Source: Balanoglossus misakiensis | Lineage: Eukaryota; Animalia; Hemichordata | Length of the DNA: 64,000 nt | NCBI GenBank assembly: GCA_040954595.2 | Contig: CM082594.2 | Span: forward strand, 11,536,276-11,600,275 | Direction of reading: 5' to 3' | The notes under the pieces: model-generated | Told to the model about the DNA's origin: nothing | What the model saw: only the letters and a program-made list of their open reading frames with translations | Databases searched by the model: none | Shown: one piece after another, positions 42,501 to 63,861 of the stretch | How the letters are laid out: each line of letters begins with the position of its first letter | How positions within the stretch are numbered: position 1 is the stretch's first letter | Position numbers and translations under genes: made by a program

Positions 42501-43335
42501 CAACTGTTCCCAACTGTGTTCCGGAACCTGAACATTCGTGTTGAAGATACACAAAATCTCTCTCCGAGCATTTCCATATTTTGCAAACATTACGTACAAA
42601 TAATAAATATGCTTATTTGATGTCAATGTCTACTAGTATACCCCTATGGCATTCCATATTTGTACACATCTACACACAAACTAAAACCTAAAAGAACCAA
42701 ACCAACAATTTCAATTGAAGCCGTTATATATGTTGTGTTGACACTGTCACATGTGGGAGTAGCGCCACCACGTGATCTACTAGAGCATTGTGCGGCTGTC
42801 AGTCCGAAGCTTATCGTACACAAAACTGGACATGTACCAGAGTGTGAACTCGGGGCAACAATGAAGTGGTCATCTTCGTGTGTCAAGATTCTGCGGCAGA
42901 GTGAACCACCACAAAATATGTCCGCCCATAAGGGAAACGTTGACCATTCATTTGGCAACAATTGGGAAGTTGATCTAGTCAATCATAGATTTCCAGTGTG
43001 TGACTACGCGAAAAAAAGAGCGCCCCTACATGGTTATTCGAATTACTTAGACACACCCTTTTGGTCATGTTTGGACACATGTAAATAAAGGGTGACAGTA
43101 TTCCTTTGACACCTGTTGGTCAGTCTAAAAAATAAACGGACTGCTAATTTAATATTTTATCATCTAATCTGCGATAGTACCTGTCATGTTTACTTGAAGT
43201 TGAGATATTATCATTGTCAAGGCCAAGGCAAACTCATGTGCTTTAGCGGACCAAACAAATGATAATGCCACATAAGCTAATTTATGTGTTTCTCGTCCCT
43301 GTGTTTATTTTTAAAACACGATCATTTCAAATGTT

Positions 43336-43439
43336 ATCACCGCCAACACCACCATCAACGACAAGACGACGACAGCACCACCACCACAACCACCACCACC
43401 AACAGTAACAACAACAACAACAGCAACAACAACAACGCC

Positions 43440-43472
<33 letters not shown>

Positions 43473-50520: not shown

Positions 50521-51363
50521 CATTGTTGTTTTTACAGGTTGGTGATTTATTACAATCACGCTGTTAAGGTTATTTCAGTTGTTGTAATGTTCCACGATCG
50601 AGATGAGGACCGATACTCGGTCGCATTATGTTCTATTTCTCCGTAATCTTGTACGTAAGGTCATGCGTGTACATTGCTGGAAATGTACATTGTAGTGGAA
50701 GGGCGATGCTGATCGTGTTTGCAAGTACCTTCAGCGTTCGGCAGAAATCGATCAGGTGTAATTAATTAACAGATCAGCTCTATGGAACTTTATGTCAGAG
50801 TGCCTATGTCTGTCAGGATTTCGATGTCTTTGCCAACAGACCTCTCCCGTGATAATAATGTTTTTGCGGAGATCATATTACATTGTCATTCGACTCATTG
50901 TATTATCATTGTGCTTAGCCATCCGGCCTTGTAGAAACATGTTGTATTATAGGTTAGGTCATCACCAAATCGATAATACATACAATATTCATACTATGTT
51001 GAGCAGTTAAGGCGAATTAGTTACCACTTGGCATGGTTTGTCGAGATACTAGTATTTTAAACAGGTACATAACTATCGTGCAAATACATGTACAATGGTG
51101 AGGATTTTGAAGGATAGGGAAAAGATTTGAAGTGTTTTATCGTGGAAAAAATGTGAGATATGGCAACTCCCAACCATGTATACATTTTCCATTCACTCTT
51201 CTCTTTTTTCTTTTCAAATTTTAGGTAGCCATGATATTTACAATGGAAGCCCATGATCGTGGATGACAAATACTGTGTGTTGCTCATCTAAGAAGTACAC
51301 CCACAAGATAATTGCTGTTTTCAGTTGAATCTCGTGTGATACAAATCTTCAGAAAGCTTTGAC

Positions 51364-52683
51364 ATGGCTCCAACGAAAAGATTTGTCATAAACTTCATGT
51401 TACTGTCTACTTTAGCACTGCTGAATATCTTGGTATATGTTTATTTCACTCACCCTGCGCTGTTAAATGTGAGGACGTTGGGCACGCAACGACCGAGAAT
51501 TGAAGTTTCGAGGTTGCATCAGGGTGAAATCGGGACTAAAGCAGATGTTCCGGGGCAAGCAAACAATACAAGTAAGATTCAGCCGTTGGACAACAAGGAA
51601 ACAGATCAGCATGGACAGCCAGCCAATCAGGGTGGACAGATACTAAAACCAGATGCACAGTTAGGGAACCAAAATGGGCAACCAGTGAATCAAAATGGAC
51701 AGCCAGCTCAGGGTGGACAACAACCAAACCAAAATGAGCAACTACCAAATCTGATACCTGTCAATACTAATGAGCAGGCCAACCAGGGCCTCAATCCTAA
51801 CCCAGCAGATCCAGAACAAGAGGAAACGAAGCCCAAGAAAATTGTTATGCCGCATGATTATCGGTTAGTCATCAACCAACCCGAGAAGTGCTTGAATCCA
51901 GACGGCTCGAAGGCCGATGTGTTTCTCCTGGTTCTTGTGAACTCAGTCCACAAAAACTTTGAACAGAGACAGGCGATACGAGACACATGGGGTAGCCTTA
52001 CTATGATGCTTGGACATAGAATCATTACTTTATTCATGCTGGCCAATGTGCATGACGACAACCTTCAAAACCTTGTTCAACAAGAAAGTGCAAAACATGG
52101 TGACATCCTAATGGAGAGTTTTGACGACACGTACAAAAACCTGACCCTGAAGTCAATCATGGGGTTTAAGTGGGCCACCAATTACTGTTCCCATGCCCGC
52201 TTTGGGATGAAAACTGATGATGATATGTATATCAGCTATGAAAATATTGTGAAATTTTTAATCAATGCACCAGATCGAAAACTAGCCGTAGGCTATCTTA
52301 TCAACGGCGCCCCGATCAGAGACCCAAAAAGCAAATGGTTTATGCCACGAGAGACTTATCCAGGAAACAGATACCCACCGTTTCTTTCGGGTACTGGATA
52401 TGTAATGTCCTTGGATGTCATACGCGACACATATGAGATATCCATATACACACCGTTCCTGTATCTTGAGGACGTGTATGTTGGAACTTGCTGGGAACAG
52501 ATCGGAGTCATTCCGGTCAAACATCCGGAATTCCACAACTGGAAGAAGATGTACCAGTTGTGTCGGTATCGGAGTATCATGACTGCTCACATGGTGACTC
52601 CCAATGAAATGTATCGAATATGGCGAGACATGGCCTCCAAGAAACATATTATGTGTCCAAAATCTCCTCGACATCAGCGTTAA
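51364..52683 (+). CDS. B3GALT1: Beta-1,3-galactosyltransferase 1-like (probable conserved B3GALT1/2 orthologue), paralogue 10 (439 aa)
   Basis: All GT31 motifs; C-terminus FHNWKKMYQLCRYRSIMTAHMVTPNEMYRIWRDMASKKHIMC closely matches my recollection of vertebrate B3GALT1 (FNHWKMAYSLCRYRRVITVHQISPEEMHRIWNDMSSKKHLRC); Gln/Asn/Gly/Pro-rich stem; acceptor ending 51224. Confidence 0.9.
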   Translation: MAPTKRFVINFMLLSTLALLNILVYVYFTHPALLNVRTLGTQRPRIEVSRLHQGEIGTKADVPGQANNTSKIQPLDNKETDQHGQPANQGGQILKPDAQLGNQNGQPVNQNGQPAQGGQQPNQNEQLPNLIPVNTNEQANQGLNPNPADPEQEETKPKKIVMPHDYRLVINQPEKCLNPDGSKADVFLLVLVNSVHKNFEQRQAIRDTWGSLTMMLGHRIITLFMLANVHDDNLQNLVQQESAKHGDILMESFDDTYKNLTLKSIMGFKWATNYCSHARFGMKTDDDMYISYENIVKFLINAPDRKLAVGYLINGAPIRDPKSKWFMPRETYPGNRYPPFLSGTGYVMSLDVIRDTYEISIYTPFLYLEDVYVGTCWEQIGVIPVKHPEFHNWKKMYQLCRYRSIMTAHMVTPNEMYRIWRDMASKKHIMCPKSPRHQR

Positions 52684-57374: not shown

Positions 57375-59236
57375 GGCTCGTATCGACCACTGAACCAAAC
57401 TGCAAAATGTTCCTCCTATATGTTTTCAGGCACTGCCAGAAATATGTGACGATAAATACCTCAGCACCGACGTGTTAAATAGCAACGAATGCGGCTAATT
57501 TGCAGAAGGGATTTCACATTGTTGCTAACATGACAACTCCTTTGTCATTGTTGAATACTTACGGGCAACACATGTGTGGACGAGTAATCAATCAGTTGCC
57601 AGATACATGATCCTTCAACAAGACAATATTGAAGACTGATTTCATCAAAGCTGTCGCCCCTTCAGAGTGTTCCGCCGCCATTAGAGATACTCTTGAATGA
57701 GTGACAGACGCTGGTAACAGTTAACGGGGATTTCTGCCAGTTAAGTCACTTATCTGACTGTCTGTTTGTCTAGCAATGTATCGCTTTGAGCATCGGCATC
57801 TGTGTTAGTAAATCTGTCTGTCCACGTAGCACCCAAATTCCAAATTATCAGAAGCAAATCATAAGGGTCCTGTATTTGATAGTCGATGCTGTAGCAGAGT
57901 ATGTCATTGTCAGATTGAACAGTGGAAATATTAAATAACATGCAATACCGCGACGGACCCTCGCTTCTAACAGCGACTGGTCAAATATCTATGCAAATTT
58001 GGTTTGTGGATTATAACGGTTGCCGAGTGGTTGCTATGGGGCTGATCTGTAGCGCGGATTGTGTCGGAACACATGTGTCGACCAAACTATAGAAGGGAGA
58101 GGATTGAATCTCTTACTAAAGTGATACGTCTTTGTCACGAATAGAAAATTGTTCGCCGGTCGATTTGTTGCAAGTTGTTGAACCGCCTCGCTTGTCAAAC
58201 GTTGCTGGACTAATGTGTGTCATGATAATTTGTAGACAGGAACCGATACAGTGACAGTACATTCTGGTAGACGAGTTTCAACAGATTTTGGCATAATCAT
58301 TCCATTGATGATGACGGGAATATATTGATTTTGATGTGTGTTATTTATTTGTTAATATACAATGTTTACATGTTTAATATACACACCGATAATAAAGAAT
58401 TCTAATAAAGATATTTTACTGGTGTATTTCGAAGAAGACATAAAAATGATTTTTTTTCCGAGATATAGATTTTAATGTGTTAATTTGTATTTGAATGCCT
58501 TAAAGAAGGTATGCTCTATAATCCTGTCTATTGACTATTTCTTTATTTATGTACAAAAATACAAAGCGATAAACGCTTGCTAAACATTCCACTTTAAATT
58601 GTGCTAAACAACGTTTCTCTAAAAGAGAAGATTTTGGCGTAAAATTTTACAATTTATGTATAATCAAACAATAACTGATAAAATATTAAAACAAGATGCT
58701 ATCTTATCCCTGTGGTGACATATAATACTATCCTCGTCCAGTTCTTAATTCTCACTGGGCATTCTCTCAAAGATAGCACACATACATATACAGTGTACTA
58801 TCAATGAATGATGAACTGTGAATAATTTCTATTTCAGCGCAAGACTGCCGCCGAAGTGAATTTTGCATTACAATGTATAGCTACGTCTAGGAATAGGCTG
58901 CAAATGTGTGTATTTATACACAATTGAATTTTGGTTCTCAAAAGCGAACCTTTAAATTTCGAGATCTTAGACTCCCAAAGACGTCATTGACGCTTGGTAT
59001 TTACATTACCAATTGAATTAAAAAGTAGAGATGTTGATAGCTGACTGCGGCAGCGATTGCAGCTTTTCAGAATAAACATTTAAATATTTATGCACCGATT
59101 TTGTGAGTATCAAACGCTCGGCAGTTGGCAGCGGTTTTCATGATTTTGTTCACGTTGGCGTTGCATGACTTTGATCATAGTGGATGTGTGTACTCTATAT
59201 TCTTGCCTTGGTCTTGTAGTCATGGCGACCTGGTAT

Positions 59237-60376
59237 TCAATCAAAATGTTGTACGTAGTTGGTTGAGTACTGCGTGTATGTGGTATTACCATCTCTGAAG
59301 GAGTAGGATGTGGTGTGCGCAGATGATTGTCCTTTCCCGGGGGAGCCTTGAACATATCCCGTGGACTTGCCTCCACCTCTCAGTGTGCGACTGCCGTCAT
59401 AGGGACTTCCAATGGTTCTGTATGCAAAACTCTCACCCACCGTGCCCGGCGCATACGTGCGATTAAGAGTGCCACCCCCGTGAGCGTAGTCGACAGCGCC
59501 ACCTCTGTAGCCACCACCGCTGACGGTATTATACGTGTAACCGTCATCCATCGCCCCGACTTTGTGATTTCGACCGAGGCTACCGCCTTTGTAGTTGCGA
59601 TTAAGACTTCCACCTGCGTAACCGTAACCGGCAGTACCAGCGCCATAACCGTCTACAATGGTGGTGGTGCCCACCTGATTGCGACCAATGGTTCCACCAC
59701 CACCGTAACCATCCCCGATGGTACCTCCTCCATAACTACCATCGACACCACCACCACCACCATAACTGTCAACCACAGTGCTGCTTCCATAACTGCGACC
59801 GACGGTACCACCACCATAGCCTTCTCCAACATTACCACCTCCTTGAACGCGACCGATAGTACCACTGGTACCGCCATAGCCATCCCCAACAGTACCACCT
59901 CCATAACTACGGCCAATAGTACCACCACCACCACCACCACCACCACCACCACCACCACCACCACCCCCACCTCCACCACCACCACCATAGCCATACCCAT
60001 CCCCAACAGTTCCACCTGCATAGCCGCGACCAACCATGCCTCCTCCGTAATTATCACTGACAGTACCGCCTCCATATGTGTAGCTGCGACTGACAGAACT
60101 ACTACCTCCGCTGCCCCCAAAACCTCCTCCTCCTCCTCCTGCCCCTCCCACCCCTCCTCCTGCTCCCCAGCCTCCCCCAGCGCCTCCAGAACCTCCCCTA
60201 CTTCCAAAACTGCCCTTGCCACTACTTCCGCCAACAAATCCAACAGCGCCACCACCACCACCACCGGCCACCCCGCCAATGAAACCGTCATCACCAGCGT
60301 CGGACGCGTATAATTTGCCAGTGTAGGTTGGATTCTTGAACGTGGAAGTTGCATGCTTGTATATAGGGTTCTCCTC
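59237..60376 (-). CDS. ITGB: Integrin beta terminal exon: [21 protein letters not shown] plus 358-aa Gly/Tyr-rich extension
   Basis: Acceptor aattctag at 60378-60377, phase 0 with the upstream donor at 60502; 35 codons lead in frame into the 344-aa ORF 59237..60271; stop TGA at 59239-59237. Confidence 0.85.
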   Translation of the reverse strand, partial: EENPIYKHATSTFKNPTYTGKLYASDAGDDGFIGGVAGGGGGGAVGFVGGSSGKGSFGSRGGSGGAGGGWGAGGGVGGAGGGGGGFGGSGGSSSVSRSYTYGGGTVSDNYGGGMVGRGYAGGTVGDGYGYGGGGGGGGGGGGGGGGGGGGGGTIGRSYGGGTVGDGYGGTSGTIGRVQGGGNVGEGYGGGTVGRSYGSSTVVDSYGGGGGVDGSYGGGTIGDGYGGGGTIGRNQVGTTTIVDGYGAGTAGYGYAGGSLNRNYKGGSLGRNHKVGAMDDGYTYNTVSGGGYRGGAVDYAHGGGTLNRTYAPGTVGESFAYRTIGSPYDGSRTLRGGGKSTGYVQGSPGKGQSSAHTTSYSFRDGNTTYTQYSTNYVQHFD

Positions 60377-63300
60377 CTAGAATTTACAACAAAAAATCAA
60401 GAAATCCATGTTTATGTGATCATGCATATCATTGCTAATATTGACATGCAATTTCAGCAAATAACCCATAAGCAAACTCAAGGCCAATCAAAAGTTACTC
60501 ACAGCGTCCCACTTGGCTTCCATCTTCTCCTGTTCGAACTTTGCAAATTCTCTCCTGTCGTGGATTGTGGTCAGTATCTTCCAGATGAGCAACAAGGCTA
60601 ACCCGATGAATAGAATTCCCAAGATCACGCCAAGAATTATGAACAAGGCATTGACAGCTACTGGGCATACTGAACACAAGGAAAAAAGAGATACATTCAA
60701 CCAACCTACAAAATCTACTTAATGATATCATACATTCTGTGATCTTCTGAATAAAATTGCAAACGGACCGTAATTTAATTTCCATATACCTTTGTCTTCG
60801 TCAACATAAAGGACGTGAGTTCCATTCTCCAGTTGACCATGGATAAACTCAAATATGCATTCGTCATCGTCATGGTAACGACACACTTCCACACCATCTG
60901 TAAGAGTGAACGCTTCATTAGATTGTTGATGCATACACGGTAGATGAGTATAGGTTTGTCTGTGGTGCAAAGGACAACGCTGGCCTCAGTATATGCATAC
61001 GGATAAGGTGTGTTACAAAACATTGCATTTATTTACCTCTTTCAATTTCTGGGACCATGGTAACAGGGTAAGGACACTCCTCACACTCGTCCTCCGTCAG
61101 ATTGCCTGATTGATAGGCTTGACACTGAACACAGGCTTTGCTATTAAGACATCTGTTCACTTCACACACACCAACGTAAGCCTGGAATACAAGTCACATG
61201 GTGAAATTCATGGTGAACGCAACCAACAAAACATTCCAATGACATTGAACAGTTTTGGTTAGCATTTGCCAGTAATAGTATGTTCACTTCGTGAGAGAGT
61301 TATATAACGAATGTTGAGTTATTATGCAAATCGTGACTACATACTCACCTGTCCTATAGGACAGTCTTCGCATGTGGGTCCCGAGTACAGCGTTAGGGTA
61401 GAATTACATACACACTTGCCACAGTTGCAGAAACCAACGCCATTACACTCTTCCTGCACGAGAAAGCAAACAGAAACCCTCGTGTGTAAACCCTGAGCTC
61501 TTCCAGAATTAAAAGACCTCAAAGAAGACGCAGGACCACTTATAAACGTACATCACTTCAAAATACCAATGGGAGTTAAGGCCTACCCCGTTTGCGGCGA
61601 TACAAGCTGCATTGGATGCAGGACATTCACAGGCCGAACCGATCCACTGATCGCGGCACACGCAGACACTCCTGTGAAGTACTTCATCGCAGACACATTC
61701 TCCGTGGCTGAGACCTTCAGAAAAAAAAGACAGTACAATGGAACTGTTTTTCATCAGACAGGACATTTCTGAACATGGTTTTGGGTGTTCATCTTGAATT
61801 AAGTGACTAATTGATTTGAGAAATTACCTCCACAGACAAGTCCACCAGACCGATCACATGACTGAGTGTCGCATTCACAGAATGGACCACTTCTCTGCAA
61901 ATAATAAAAGCACAAATATATCCTCTTATATACATGCAGTTATTTAAAAATAGAGAACACTGTAATCATATACACACGTAATATCTTGTTTCAGTTGGCG
62001 AGAACTTTGTTCACACTTACCCCAGGATTACAGACACATCCACCACAAAGACAAAATCCCTGTCCTGAACATACCAAGGCGCCAGTTGCGTTAGTCCTGC
62101 ATGAAGGAAATACAGGCTCCATGTGAATGAAATTAACTGACTAATTACACCTTTCACATCAATCGATCTATCACTATGGTAGTTCAGAATATTTCTGTAA
62201 TCAAATCAAGGATGCACCAAAAGGGAACGACTCGTGCAACGGCTTCACTGTTAACGCACTCACATTTTACATTGTGTCACATCGTCTGGCCCATCATCCA
62301 CGCTGCTGCATTCACATTTGTCCCCATATCTATTTGGCATACAGTCGCACGCGCTGCAGACCAAGCTTCCGTTGCCAAGAGAACACTGCTTGGCATTGGG
62401 TATCTAGACGGGAACAGAACATTGACCACACAGTCAACAGCTGTTGCAGTTTTGTTTAAATGTTCACTTCTATTGTCATTACTGATTTGTGTCTTAGTAT
62501 GAAGATTTGTATGAAGGGGAACATTTTATTTATAATTCGCAGTGCATAAAATAGACTACTTACACGAACAGCTTCACAATCGCAGCTACAGTCCACCTCA
62601 ATCTGTACCATCAGCGACTCATCAAATCCAATCGGTTTTATTTCAAAGCTGTGAACCAACAAAATAATTACTTGGAGCCCTTCATATTTTTCTGAAATTC
62701 AATTTCATAAACCACCACAGGAAAAGTGTGGGAATGGAGTTATTCGTACCTTTCAAGTGGTCCTGATGGGCATTTGGTTGCGCGTATCCCAATCTGAAAT
62801 TGGACTGTATCTCCGACGCTCAATCCAGAACATTCATTAGATCCGTAGTTGGTGAAATTGCCTAAACACATCGAGTTATAAGATATTTCGATCCCATCAG
62901 GGGCGTCATCCACCATGGTCACCTTTGATGTGATTTTCTGTCGATCAATCAATCAATCTGGTCAGTCAGCCGCTCAATCAATCAAGCAAGCAACCAATGA
63001 CCACGCTGGACCCTGAATGATTGTGTTTGGTGATTTACTCACCTGATAGTTTTCTTTGACAAGTTCTACAATGTTGGATGAATCCGTGGCTAATACACCG
63101 GCTAAGGATCCCTCGATGTGATTGGTCAATTCCTAGGAATTCAAGCGTAAAATATCGCCATTGATAAATTATACACTGTTCTCAATAATTCAAACACGTC
63201 ATCTCACTCTAAACAGAAGCATACCGTCGTTGGTGTTGGGATATCAAACGGGTAACACCACGATGATGGAAAGTCCCACCAAGAGGTTTATATTGGTGGA

Positions 63301-63861
63301 AGTTTTCACAACGTTGCATAAATAAGTTCTAAAGACAGCCCTACCGAGTAGATATCCACTTTATTCTGAGTGACAGCAAAGACTGGAATGATGTTGTGTT
63401 CCTTCATCCTTTTATTGAGTTGACTGATTGATGGGTAGTCCTTCATGGTAATAAACAGAAAGAATAGTGTGTTGGTAATTATTATCTTGGTTCAAAACAG
63501 AATTAACTTCTGTGAAAAACCTCATGACTAAAAGCTCAATTACAAACCGATTATCGTCGTGTTCTATGTTGATCACTTACCAATGAATCGGATTTCATAT
63601 ATTCACCAGTTTCTTCGTCCAAATAACATTCACCGTCGTTAGGTTTCACGATGCCTGCAAGCTATCGAATATGGAAAACAATTTAATCAAATTATAGAGC
63701 TATCTGACCACCTTTACTCGCCTGGGTCAAGGGGGTTCAAATCAATAATATTGTGCAGCAGAAAACGACATAGTTACCTTTCCATCACCGGCGTAGTGAA
63801 AAGAGGCATCGGTCGTGTAAATGATCAAATGTCTGGCTCGTTCTCTCCATCCAATCTGGTC
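59237..63861 (-). CDS. ITGB: Integrin beta subunit, 3' part (15 exons in window; 5' exons lie beyond 64000) with a greatly extended cytoplasmic tail
   Basis: Phase-consistent GT-AG exons: 63778-63861 ([26 protein letters not shown]), 63581-63661 ([14 protein letters not shown]), 63345-63440 ([17 protein letters not shown]), 63043-63132 ([14 protein letters not shown]), 62750-62937, 62564-62648, 62264-62403, 62021-62096, 61828-61894, 61587-61714, 61349-61453 (Cys-rich I-EGF repeats), 61037-61181, 60790-60897 (beta-tail domain), 60503-60669 (TM + [14 protein letters not shown]), 59237-60376 (NPIY, NPTY + extension). Confidence 0.95.
60503..60669 (-). CDS. ITGB: Integrin beta transmembrane / membrane-proximal cytoplasmic exon
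   Basis: [55 protein letters not shown] bounded by cag and gtgagt. Confidence 0.95.
62944..62998. repeat. Degenerate (TCAA)n tetranucleotide repeat in an integrin intron
   Basis: atcaatcaatcaatc...tcaatcaatcaagcaagcaacc directly abutting the acceptor of exon 62750-62937. Confidence 0.7.

What the first reader, a model, noticed from the sequence alone, without database searches (positions are those of the whole stretch)
59237..60376. Integrin beta with a ~360-aa Gly/Tyr-rich cytoplasmic extension beyond the NPxY motifs
Seen: the spliced frame runs [38 protein letters not shown] and continues without a stop for 358 more residues ([20 protein letters not shown]...[15 protein letters not shown]), very rich in Gly, Tyr, Ser and Thr, with a ~23-Gly run. 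Known: beta1-type tails are ~50 aa and end right here (human beta1A NPKYEGK-stop, fly betaPS NPMYAGK-stop); the well-known long-tailed exception, vertebrate beta4, uses FnIII/Calx-beta domains instead. Inference: this receptor keeps its talin/kindlin sites but adds a low-complexity, tyrosine-studded module resembling keratin-head/loricrin glycine loops or prion-like domains. It could drive receptor clustering or condensates, act as a multi-phosphotyrosine scaffold, or link to intermediate filaments convergently with beta4.
Basis: partly seen in the sequence, partly recalled or inferred. Interest (0 to 1): 0.9.

Follow-up and report, generated by a model that had tools for sequence, protein, structure and literature searches.

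The report
Integrin with a self-repeating glycine tail
An integrin beta gene closest to acorn-worm ones keeps its two usual NPxY docking motifs but stays in frame for 358 more codons of glycine/tyrosine-rich nine-residue repeats, a likely translated tail that would let the receptors stick to one another and pre-cluster inside the cell.

Summary
Observation confirmed. A 15-exon GT-AG model (63861-59237, minus strand) gives one open frame: a beta1/betaPS-class integrin, 69-77% identical to acorn-worm proteins with all 46 cysteines shared. Its last exon runs 358 codons past NPTYTGK. All 51 protein and 32 DNA relatives with a readable two-motif tail stop 2-18 residues after the second motif. No homolog of the extension was found.

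The 27-base periodicity sits only at codon positions 1-2 (0.53/0.53/0.37, p 1e-4), so selection acted on the protein in this frame. The repeat matches prokaryote-like xxNTIGxxF arrays, and an alignment-guided, low-confidence model is a beta-solenoid.

No RNA run or genome was available, so translation as one chain is inferred (about 0.85-0.9). Most likely mechanism (0.4): a built-in self-association module that pre-clusters talin/kindlin sites. New variant of a known kind; interest 0.66.

The parts
60790..63861 (-). Exons 1-13 of the part of the integrin beta gene inside the window: C-terminal half of the betaA domain, hybrid, Cys-rich I-EGF repeats, beta-tail domain. The 5' part of the gene lies beyond the window end.
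   Evidence: GT-AG model, one open frame; tblastn with P0003/P0004; 46 of 46 Cys shared with both
60503..60669 (-). Exon 14: transmembrane helix, HDRRE motif, membrane-proximal tail to AKWDA
   Evidence: Pfam PF08725 E 1.6e-10; 86-87% identical to Ptychodera, Saccoglossus and a JGI protein
60314..60376 (-). First 21 codons of the last exon: NPIY (60370-60359), ATST, NPTY (60334-60323), then TGK. Begins with Glu where relatives have Gly.
   Evidence: PF08725 E 2.8e-5; best acceptor in 57430-60495, score 12.9 against 7.2 for the next; only exon of this kind in the window; Gly at this place in 46 of 48 stored proteins where the pattern could be read
60083..60313 (-). Extension aa 1-77: Gly/Ser stretch (G 51%, S 16%) punctuated by F, W, V; glycine-loop-like linker
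   Evidence: composition by segment; disordered in the single-sequence model
59384..60082 (-). Extension aa 78-310: about 17 nine-residue repeats, consensus G-G-G-T-[VIL]-G-[R/D/E]-x-Y, Arg and acidic units mostly alternating
   Evidence: unit table; lag-27 DNA identity only at codon positions 1-2; TRF periods 27 and 60; alternation 14 of 16
59921..59986 (-). In-frame (GGT)n microsatellite, 22 Gly, interrupting the repeat array
59240..59383 (-). Extension aa 311-358: Ser/Thr/Tyr-rich end with a predicted two-strand hairpin at about 59323-59252
   Evidence: AlphaFold2 strands 352-362 and 365-375 of P0001, the only stretch with block pLDDT 67-84; coordinates
58344..59236 (-). Likely 3' UTR after the TGA at 59239-59237, with AATAAA at 58547 and 58349
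   Evidence: GC 36% and 9-15 stops per frame in 230 codons; signals; not confirmed by RNA

Best explanation
This is a beta1/betaPS-class integrin beta gene of the acorn-worm clade whose last exon stays open for 358 codons beyond the two NPxY motifs, likely translated into a repeat tail that would self-associate and pre-cluster the receptors. Shown: gene structure, intact cysteines and tail motifs, the nine-residue repeat, its codon-phase signature, and its absence from the relatives read. Inferred: (1) the stop was lost at or near the usual place (the codon after TGK is TTA, one base from a stop) and the repeat grew by 27- and 54-60-base duplications under selection on the protein; (2) talin and kindlin still bind NPIY and NPTY, held clear of the repeats by the 77-residue Gly/Ser linker; (3) the repeats, with Tyr at every ninth residue, a T-[VI]-G strand and alternating Arg/Asp, stack on those of neighbouring tails as labile cross-beta or solenoid-like rungs; (4) this raises the avidity of the weak talin bond and gives a stable, adaptor-independent adhesion cluster, tunable by Ser/Thr/Tyr phosphorylation. 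The long branch suggests a specialised duplicate or a fast-evolving lineage.
For: One frame over 15 GT-AG exons; strongest acceptor and only NPxY exon in the window, and no donor among the eight best (score 4.1 or more) in the first 270 nt of the exon. GG dinucleotides by codon phase 143/15/25. Amino-acid-blind lag-27 identity 0.535/0.529/0.366 at codon positions 1/2/3 against background 0.375/0.316/0.355, z 4.3/6.0/0.3, permutation p 1e-4; 6 of 6 DNA-selected repeat pairs in frame, dN/dS about 0.39. 12 G/S-Y-G/S triplets, the motif of the self-associating FUS domain, which has 27 (PMC8675291, passages). A profile from four prokaryote-like nonapeptide arrays tiles 17 units, score 114 against 17.5 +/- 8.3 in shuffles, 0 of 1000; the model guided by them is a beta-solenoid (VIA Z up to 11.9, rmsd 3.7, 176 aligned). 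Clustering of beta tails is enough to recruit talin, kindlin and paxillin (PMC6450878, passages); talin's affinity for tails is low (PMC10293852, passages); phase separation of adaptors drives integrin clustering (PMC8791637, abstract).
Against: No transcript, read or peptide evidence could be had. No second species with the extension was found, so conservation across species is untested and the three closest relatives lack it. The single-sequence model is disordered (mean pLDDT 38); the solenoid model has pLDDT 41.6, leans on six probably unrelated repeat proteins that I supplied, has no Foldseek match at E <= 0.001, and Z under about 13 for repeats may be only a common arrangement. The charge alternation was counted on units picked for having R/D/E and can follow from duplication of a two-unit block alone. 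Purifying selection on the repeat shows it was protein-coding, not that it was always part of this integrin. Several moderately good donors (5-7.2) lie deeper in the exon.
Confidence: 0.4

Rival explanations
1. The tail is translated and is a partner-binding arm: the Gly/Ser head-like stretch co-assembles with intermediate-filament head domains or a plakin, and the terminal hairpin adds onto a partner sheet, giving a beta4-like filament anchor by convergence.
For: Segment aa 1-77 is G 51% S 16% with spaced aromatics, like keratin heads (resemblance recalled); filament head domains self-associate by labile cross-beta contacts (PMC11009871, abstract); the hairpin is the only confidently modelled part; beta4 reaches filaments through a long tail (PMC1145181, passages).
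Against: No sequence relation to keratins, plakin ligands or beta4 domains; no partner identified; both NPxY motifs for the actin route are intact.
Confidence: 0.2
2. A recent stop loss or fusion attached a pre-existing protein-coding repeat (from another, lost gene) or a tolerated repeat expansion to a relaxed duplicate; it is translated but has no selected role on the integrin.
For: Found in no relative; branch 0.42 against 0.08-0.16 for the three relatives; TTA right after TGK; GC3 of the extension 0.39 against 0.51 in neighbouring genes; an unstable (GGT)n run inside.
Against: Third positions have decayed to background while positions 1-2 are kept and no frameshift occurs in 1074 nt; no other copy of the repeat in the window; 46 of 46 Cys and all tail motifs are kept.
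Confidence: 0.13
3. The repeats fold within one chain into a stable beta-solenoid that serves as a rigid spacer or a regular Tyr/Thr binding surface, without self-association.
For: Register-for-register match to xxNTIGxxF arrays; guided model matches only beta-helices and beta-rolls.
Against: Three glycines per repeat, irregular 9-11 spacing and a 22-Gly interruption; pLDDT 36-50 along the model; unguided model disordered.
Confidence: 0.1
4. The long form is not the main product: an intron inside the exon, another last exon, early polyadenylation or an assembly join gives a normal short tail in the animal.
For: No RNA check was possible; donors scoring 5-7.2 exist at 60152-59437; repeats and microsatellites are prone to assembly error.
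Against: No other NPxY-coding exon in the window, no strong donor near the usual stop; the junction is in frame and non-repetitive; the codon-phase signal is in the integrin's frame; no N in the window.
Confidence: 0.1
5. The tail is a multi-phosphotyrosine docking scaffold for SH2/PTB adaptors.
For: 30 Tyr in 358 aa; three extra NxxY strings.
Against: Only 2 of 30 Tyr are YxxPhi, none YxN; 11 are followed by GG or AG (SH2 consensus recalled).
Confidence: 0.07

Closest known systems
Acorn-worm beta1/betaPS-like integrins (Saccoglossus P0002, Ptychodera P0004, unnamed JGI P0003)
   Same: 69-77% identity, 46 of 46 Cys (P0003, P0004), one clade at 100/100 support, same TM-HDRRE-NPIY-ATST-NPTY tail
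   Different: They end 5-7 residues after NPTY; the window's protein has 361 more residues, Glu for Gly before ENPIY, His for Gln after NPIYK, and a branch about three to five times longer
Vertebrate integrin beta4
   Same: A beta subunit with a very long cytoplasmic tail (about 1000 residues; PMC1145181, passages)
   Different: beta4 uses FnIII and Calx-beta domains and does not recruit talin (PMC1145181, PMC6450878, passages); here the NPxY pair is kept and the extension is a low-complexity repeat in a single exon with no Pfam domain
FUS/hnRNPA2-type low-complexity domains and intermediate-filament head domains
   Same: G/S-Y-G/S triplets (12 here, 27 in FUS), aromatic stickers in Gly/Ser spacers, predicted disorder as monomer
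   Different: No sequence homology found; here tethered to a membrane receptor, with a strict nine-residue period and charged positions; self-association untested
Prokaryote-like nonapeptide (xxNTIGxxF) repeat proteins P0123, P0125, P0127, P0128, and beta-solenoids generally
   Same: Nine-residue period with T-[IV]-G-x-x-aromatic in register; E 7e-8 to 7e-4
   Different: GGG replaces xxN; 20-26% identity; most likely convergent; their own fold is not solved (no PDB match for P0127)
Muscle beta1D splice variant
   Same: Non-Gly residue five places before the first NPxY tyrosine (Q778 against G778 in beta1A; PMC10293852 section 8; equivalence by counting back from Y783)
   Different: G778Q only slightly stabilised the talin bond; the decisive Pro786 is absent here (Ala); beta1D has no extension (recalled)

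Membership tests
Integrin beta subunit, beta1/betaPS class | Cys-rich I-EGF stalk and beta-tail domain with conserved cysteines | tested here: met
   46 of 46 Cys aligned with P0003 and P0004
Integrin beta subunit, beta1/betaPS class | Single TM helix, HDRRE motif, two NPxY motifs (features as in PMC1538996, passages) | tested here: met
   PF08725 above cut-off on both exons; sequence
Integrin beta subunit, beta1/betaPS class | betaA domain with complete MIDAS, signal peptide and PSI domain | not testable with these tools
   Only the C-terminal half of betaA is in the window; no genome held
Integrin beta subunit, beta1/betaPS class | Pairs with an alpha subunit and binds talin/kindlin | not testable with these tools
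   Inferred from intact motifs only
Canonical short-tailed beta subunits (typical, not defining, trait) | Protein ends a few residues after the second NPxY | tested here: not met
   361 residues follow here; 3-7 in 51 of 51 readable proteins, 2-18 in 32 of 32 readable loci
beta4-type integrin | FnIII and Calx-beta domains in the tail | tested here: not met
   Pfam finds only Integrin_b_cyt in P0001; no such PDB sequence match
FUS-type low-complexity self-associating domain | G/S-Y-G/S triplets in a disordered Gly/Ser-rich chain | tested here: met
   12 triplets; pLDDT under 50 for 347 of 379 residues
FUS-type low-complexity self-associating domain | Forms droplets, hydrogels or labile cross-beta polymers | not testable with these tools
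   Needs protein; the complex predictor was not available
Keratin head / loricrin glycine loops | Sequence homology to keratin or loricrin | tested here: inconclusive
   No hit, but low-complexity searches are insensitive; only the composition of aa 1-77 resembles them (recalled)
Beta-solenoid repeat proteins | Short regular repeat with fixed inward hydrophobic positions | tested here: met
   Position 5 V/I/L/M (used to pick units) and position 9 Y in 13 of 17; period 9; shuffle test 0 of 1000
Beta-solenoid repeat proteins | Stable parallel beta-helix fold | tested here: inconclusive
   Guided model pLDDT 41.6, VIA Z 11.9, no Foldseek match; unguided model disordered
Phosphotyrosine docking scaffold | Many Tyr in SH2-type contexts (YxxPhi, YxN; consensus recalled) | tested here: not met
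   2 of 30 and 0 of 30

The most novel reading that the evidence does not exclude
An integrin that carries its own polymerising module: the nine-residue, charge-alternating repeats of neighbouring tails zip into beta-solenoid or functional-amyloid rungs, so the receptor builds an adhesion plaque by itself, a second and independent route to a long-tailed integrin besides beta4.
Probability: 0.2. Interest if true: 0.9.

Novelty: new variant of a known kind. Interest (0 to 1): 0.66.

Why it matters
Beta tails of this class are short and almost invariant, and clustering is thought to be supplied by adaptors (talin, kindlin, paxillin, FAK, Cas). A natural beta subunit with intact talin and kindlin sites plus its own repeat module is a ready-made test of whether receptor-encoded self-association can replace adaptor-driven clustering: the tail can be grafted on a chimeric receptor with and without the repeats. 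It also documents how a new cytoplasmic domain can arise by stop loss and repeat growth, and may mark a specialised adhesion in acorn worms.

Tried and rejected
No genome is held for the window. No RNA holder was listed for 59000-62500, which is no evidence either way. Cluster-member look-ups could not be made, so the other Saccoglossus and Ptychodera isoforms were not seen. Homolog searches for the extension gave none: residues 240-379 among 665-2000-aa proteins (1731 candidates), residues 95-379 among 208-664-aa proteins (7987 candidates), ESM Atlas whole and part, tblastn in 40 metagenome loci and in the rest of the window. The full HMMER scan gave 7 hits, none an integrin; P0122, the top one, is a repetitive ORF matching 31 residues and was set aside. 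Foldseek on the guided model: none at E <= 0.001. The first pS/pN count (0.64/0.38) used units picked by amino acid and is circular; I rely on the blind tests. Horizontal transfer from the prokaryote-like repeat proteins was considered and not claimed: identity 20-26%, repeat scores are inflated. Four look-ups of earlier scan findings returned nothing. The first tree (42 rows) was the quick one; the careful tree used 15 rows and neither holds echinoderm or pterobranch rows.

Full report
1. Observation. The stretch 60376-59237 (minus strand) translates to 379 residues and a stop. Using tblastn with two relatives I built a 15-exon model from 63861 to 59237; all 14 introns (101-212 nt) are GT-AG and the join is one open frame of 899 residues. 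The gene's 5' part lies beyond the window. After NPTYTGK come 358 residues (G 143, S 33, Y 30, T 29, V 23); the glycine run is 22. Stop-free runs of this length arose in 0 of 5000 base shuffles and 0, 2 and 3 of 5000 Markov simulations of order 1-3; for the last 125 codons in 16 of 5000. Two other frames are also stop-poor (2 and 3 stops), so openness is not the main argument.

2. What the gene is. Pfam finds Integrin_b_cyt on both tail exons and nothing else in the last exon. The TM exon found 454 proteins among 509 candidates; the best 120 were listed and examined. The top three are Saccoglossus P0002 (87%), an unnamed JGI protein P0003 and Ptychodera P0004 (86%). Over the shared region identity is 69-77% to these and 47-52% to the lancelet, lamprey, mollusc and unnamed arthropod-like proteins compared. 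All 46 cysteines match P0003 and P0004. In a careful 15-row tree the four form a clade (100/100); the window's branch is 0.42 against 0.08-0.16. No echinoderm or pterobranch row was available, so 'acorn-worm clade' is relative to the rows sampled, and fast paralog cannot be told from distant species.

3. The extension is absent from relatives. Of the 120 proteins, 51 had a readable two-motif tail and all ended 3-7 residues after the second motif; the other 69 had no readable two-motif tail, many being unspliced fragments. A metagenome scan (44 of 64 parts of the collection scanned) gave 40 loci; 32 had the last exon and ended 2-18 residues after it, 19 of them after exactly three. Here the codon after the third residue is TTA, one base from a stop: a hint of stop loss, weakened by the closest relatives ending after 5-7 residues. 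Searches for the extension itself found no homolog; these are insensitive for low-complexity sequence and do not prove absence.

4. Is it really coding? The acceptor at 60376 scores 12.9 on a matrix from the gene's own sites, the next best in the interval down to the neighbouring gene 7.2; no other NPxY exon exists in the window; the eight best internal donors lie at 60152 or further in; AATAAA signals follow at 58547 and 58349. GG dinucleotides fall 143/15/25 by codon phase. A test blind to amino acids shows DNA self-identity at lag 27 of 0.535, 0.529 and 0.366 at codon positions 1, 2, 3 against backgrounds of 0.375, 0.316, 0.355 (172 sites each; permutation p 1e-4). Six repeat pairs chosen on DNA identity are all in frame, with 29 synonymous and 32 non-synonymous differences, dN/dS about 0.39 (the pairs are not independent). 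A non-coding minisatellite would decay evenly. So the repeat has been protein-coding in the integrin's frame for long. No RNA run was listed and no genome held, so translation as one chain remains inferred, about 0.85-0.9.

5. Anatomy. (a) aa 1-77: Gly/Ser linker with spaced F, W, V. (b) aa 78-310: about 17 nonapeptides G-G-G-T-[VIL]-G-[R/D/E]-x-Y, spacing mostly 9-11, interrupted by (GGT)22. Charge at position 7 reads -+-+-+-+--+-++-+-, 14 switches of 16, p 0.004; this may only reflect duplication of a two-unit block (TRF period 60). (c) aa 311-358: S/T/Y-rich end with a predicted hairpin, the only confident part of the single-sequence model (mean pLDDT 38). HMMER over 1.84 billion representatives gave 7 hits, six of them nine-residue repeat proteins with no Pfam family; four carry xxNTIGxxF arrays that align in register, and a profile from 102 such units tiles 17 units in the extension, 0 of 1000 shuffles reaching the score. 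A model guided by that alignment has periodic strands but pLDDT 41.6; it matches beta-helices and beta-rolls (VIA Z 11.9, rmsd 3.7, 176 aligned) and nothing in Foldseek at E <= 0.001. This shows compatibility with a solenoid, not a fold. In the canonical part, Glu stands where 46 of 48 readable relatives have Gly; counting back from Y783 this is position 778, where Gln instead of Gly slightly stabilised the talin bond in beta1 (PMC10293852, section 8).

6. Mechanism. Most likely (0.4) the tail self-associates through its repeats and pre-clusters the receptor. Twelve G/S-Y-G/S triplets recall the FUS domain, whose tyrosines drive self-association (PMC8675291, passages); clustered beta tails recruit talin, kindlin and paxillin (PMC6450878, passages); adaptor phase separation drives integrin clustering (PMC8791637, abstract). 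Every step from repeat to cluster is inferred. The extension also removes the free C-terminus next to the distal motif; in beta3 the last 3-8 residues matter for paxillin binding (PMC11374337, passages), so partner choice may differ. Rivals: filament or partner-binding arm 0.2; tolerated fusion without role 0.13; stable monomeric solenoid 0.1; not the main product 0.1; phosphotyrosine scaffold 0.07.

7. Known systems and print. It is a member of the integrin beta family on every feature testable in the window, and not of the beta4 type (no FnIII or Calx-beta; beta4 described in PMC1145181, passages). Passages on oyster (PMC7390872) and zebrafish (PMC1538996) variants mention lost or truncated tails, not extended ones. 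Ten literature searches, judged from titles and abstract starts of the listed papers, showed no report of a Gly/Tyr-repeat integrin tail or of hemichordate integrin tails; the library lacks most subscription journals, and I read no supplements, where alignments of invertebrate tails could show such a case. Resemblances to keratin heads, loricrin and SH2 consensus motifs are recalled.

8. Verdict. Real feature, new variant of a known kind. The architecture is surprising and directly testable, but rests on one genomic sequence without RNA or a second species. Interest 0.66; boldest reading (self-polymerising integrin) probability 0.2, interest 0.9.

Noticed in passing
window 9804-57425, both strands: Eleven single-exon ORFs of 346-465 aa, all Galactosyl_T (PF01762, B3GALT-like): a large tandem cluster directly downstream of the integrin gene.
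   Followed up: partly
window 60373-60376: A NAGNAG alternative acceptor (score 4.1) would drop one Glu before ENPIY.
   Followed up: no
window 43335-43449: A (GGT/GTT)n microsatellite, the only blastn match of the extension elsewhere in the window.
   Followed up: partly
P0123, P0125, P0127, P0128: Prokaryote- or phage-like proteins with long xxNTIGxxF nonapeptide arrays, no Pfam family and (P0127) no PDB sequence match; probably an undescribed beta-solenoid family.
   Followed up: partly
L019:4214, L022:4523, L033:1962: Metagenome integrin beta tails with modest extensions of 10, 13 and 18 residues after the second motif: short read-on occurs, long does not.
   Followed up: no
window 51340-52683: One galactosyltransferase has a Gln/Asn/Gly/Pro-rich repetitive stem region.
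   Followed up: no
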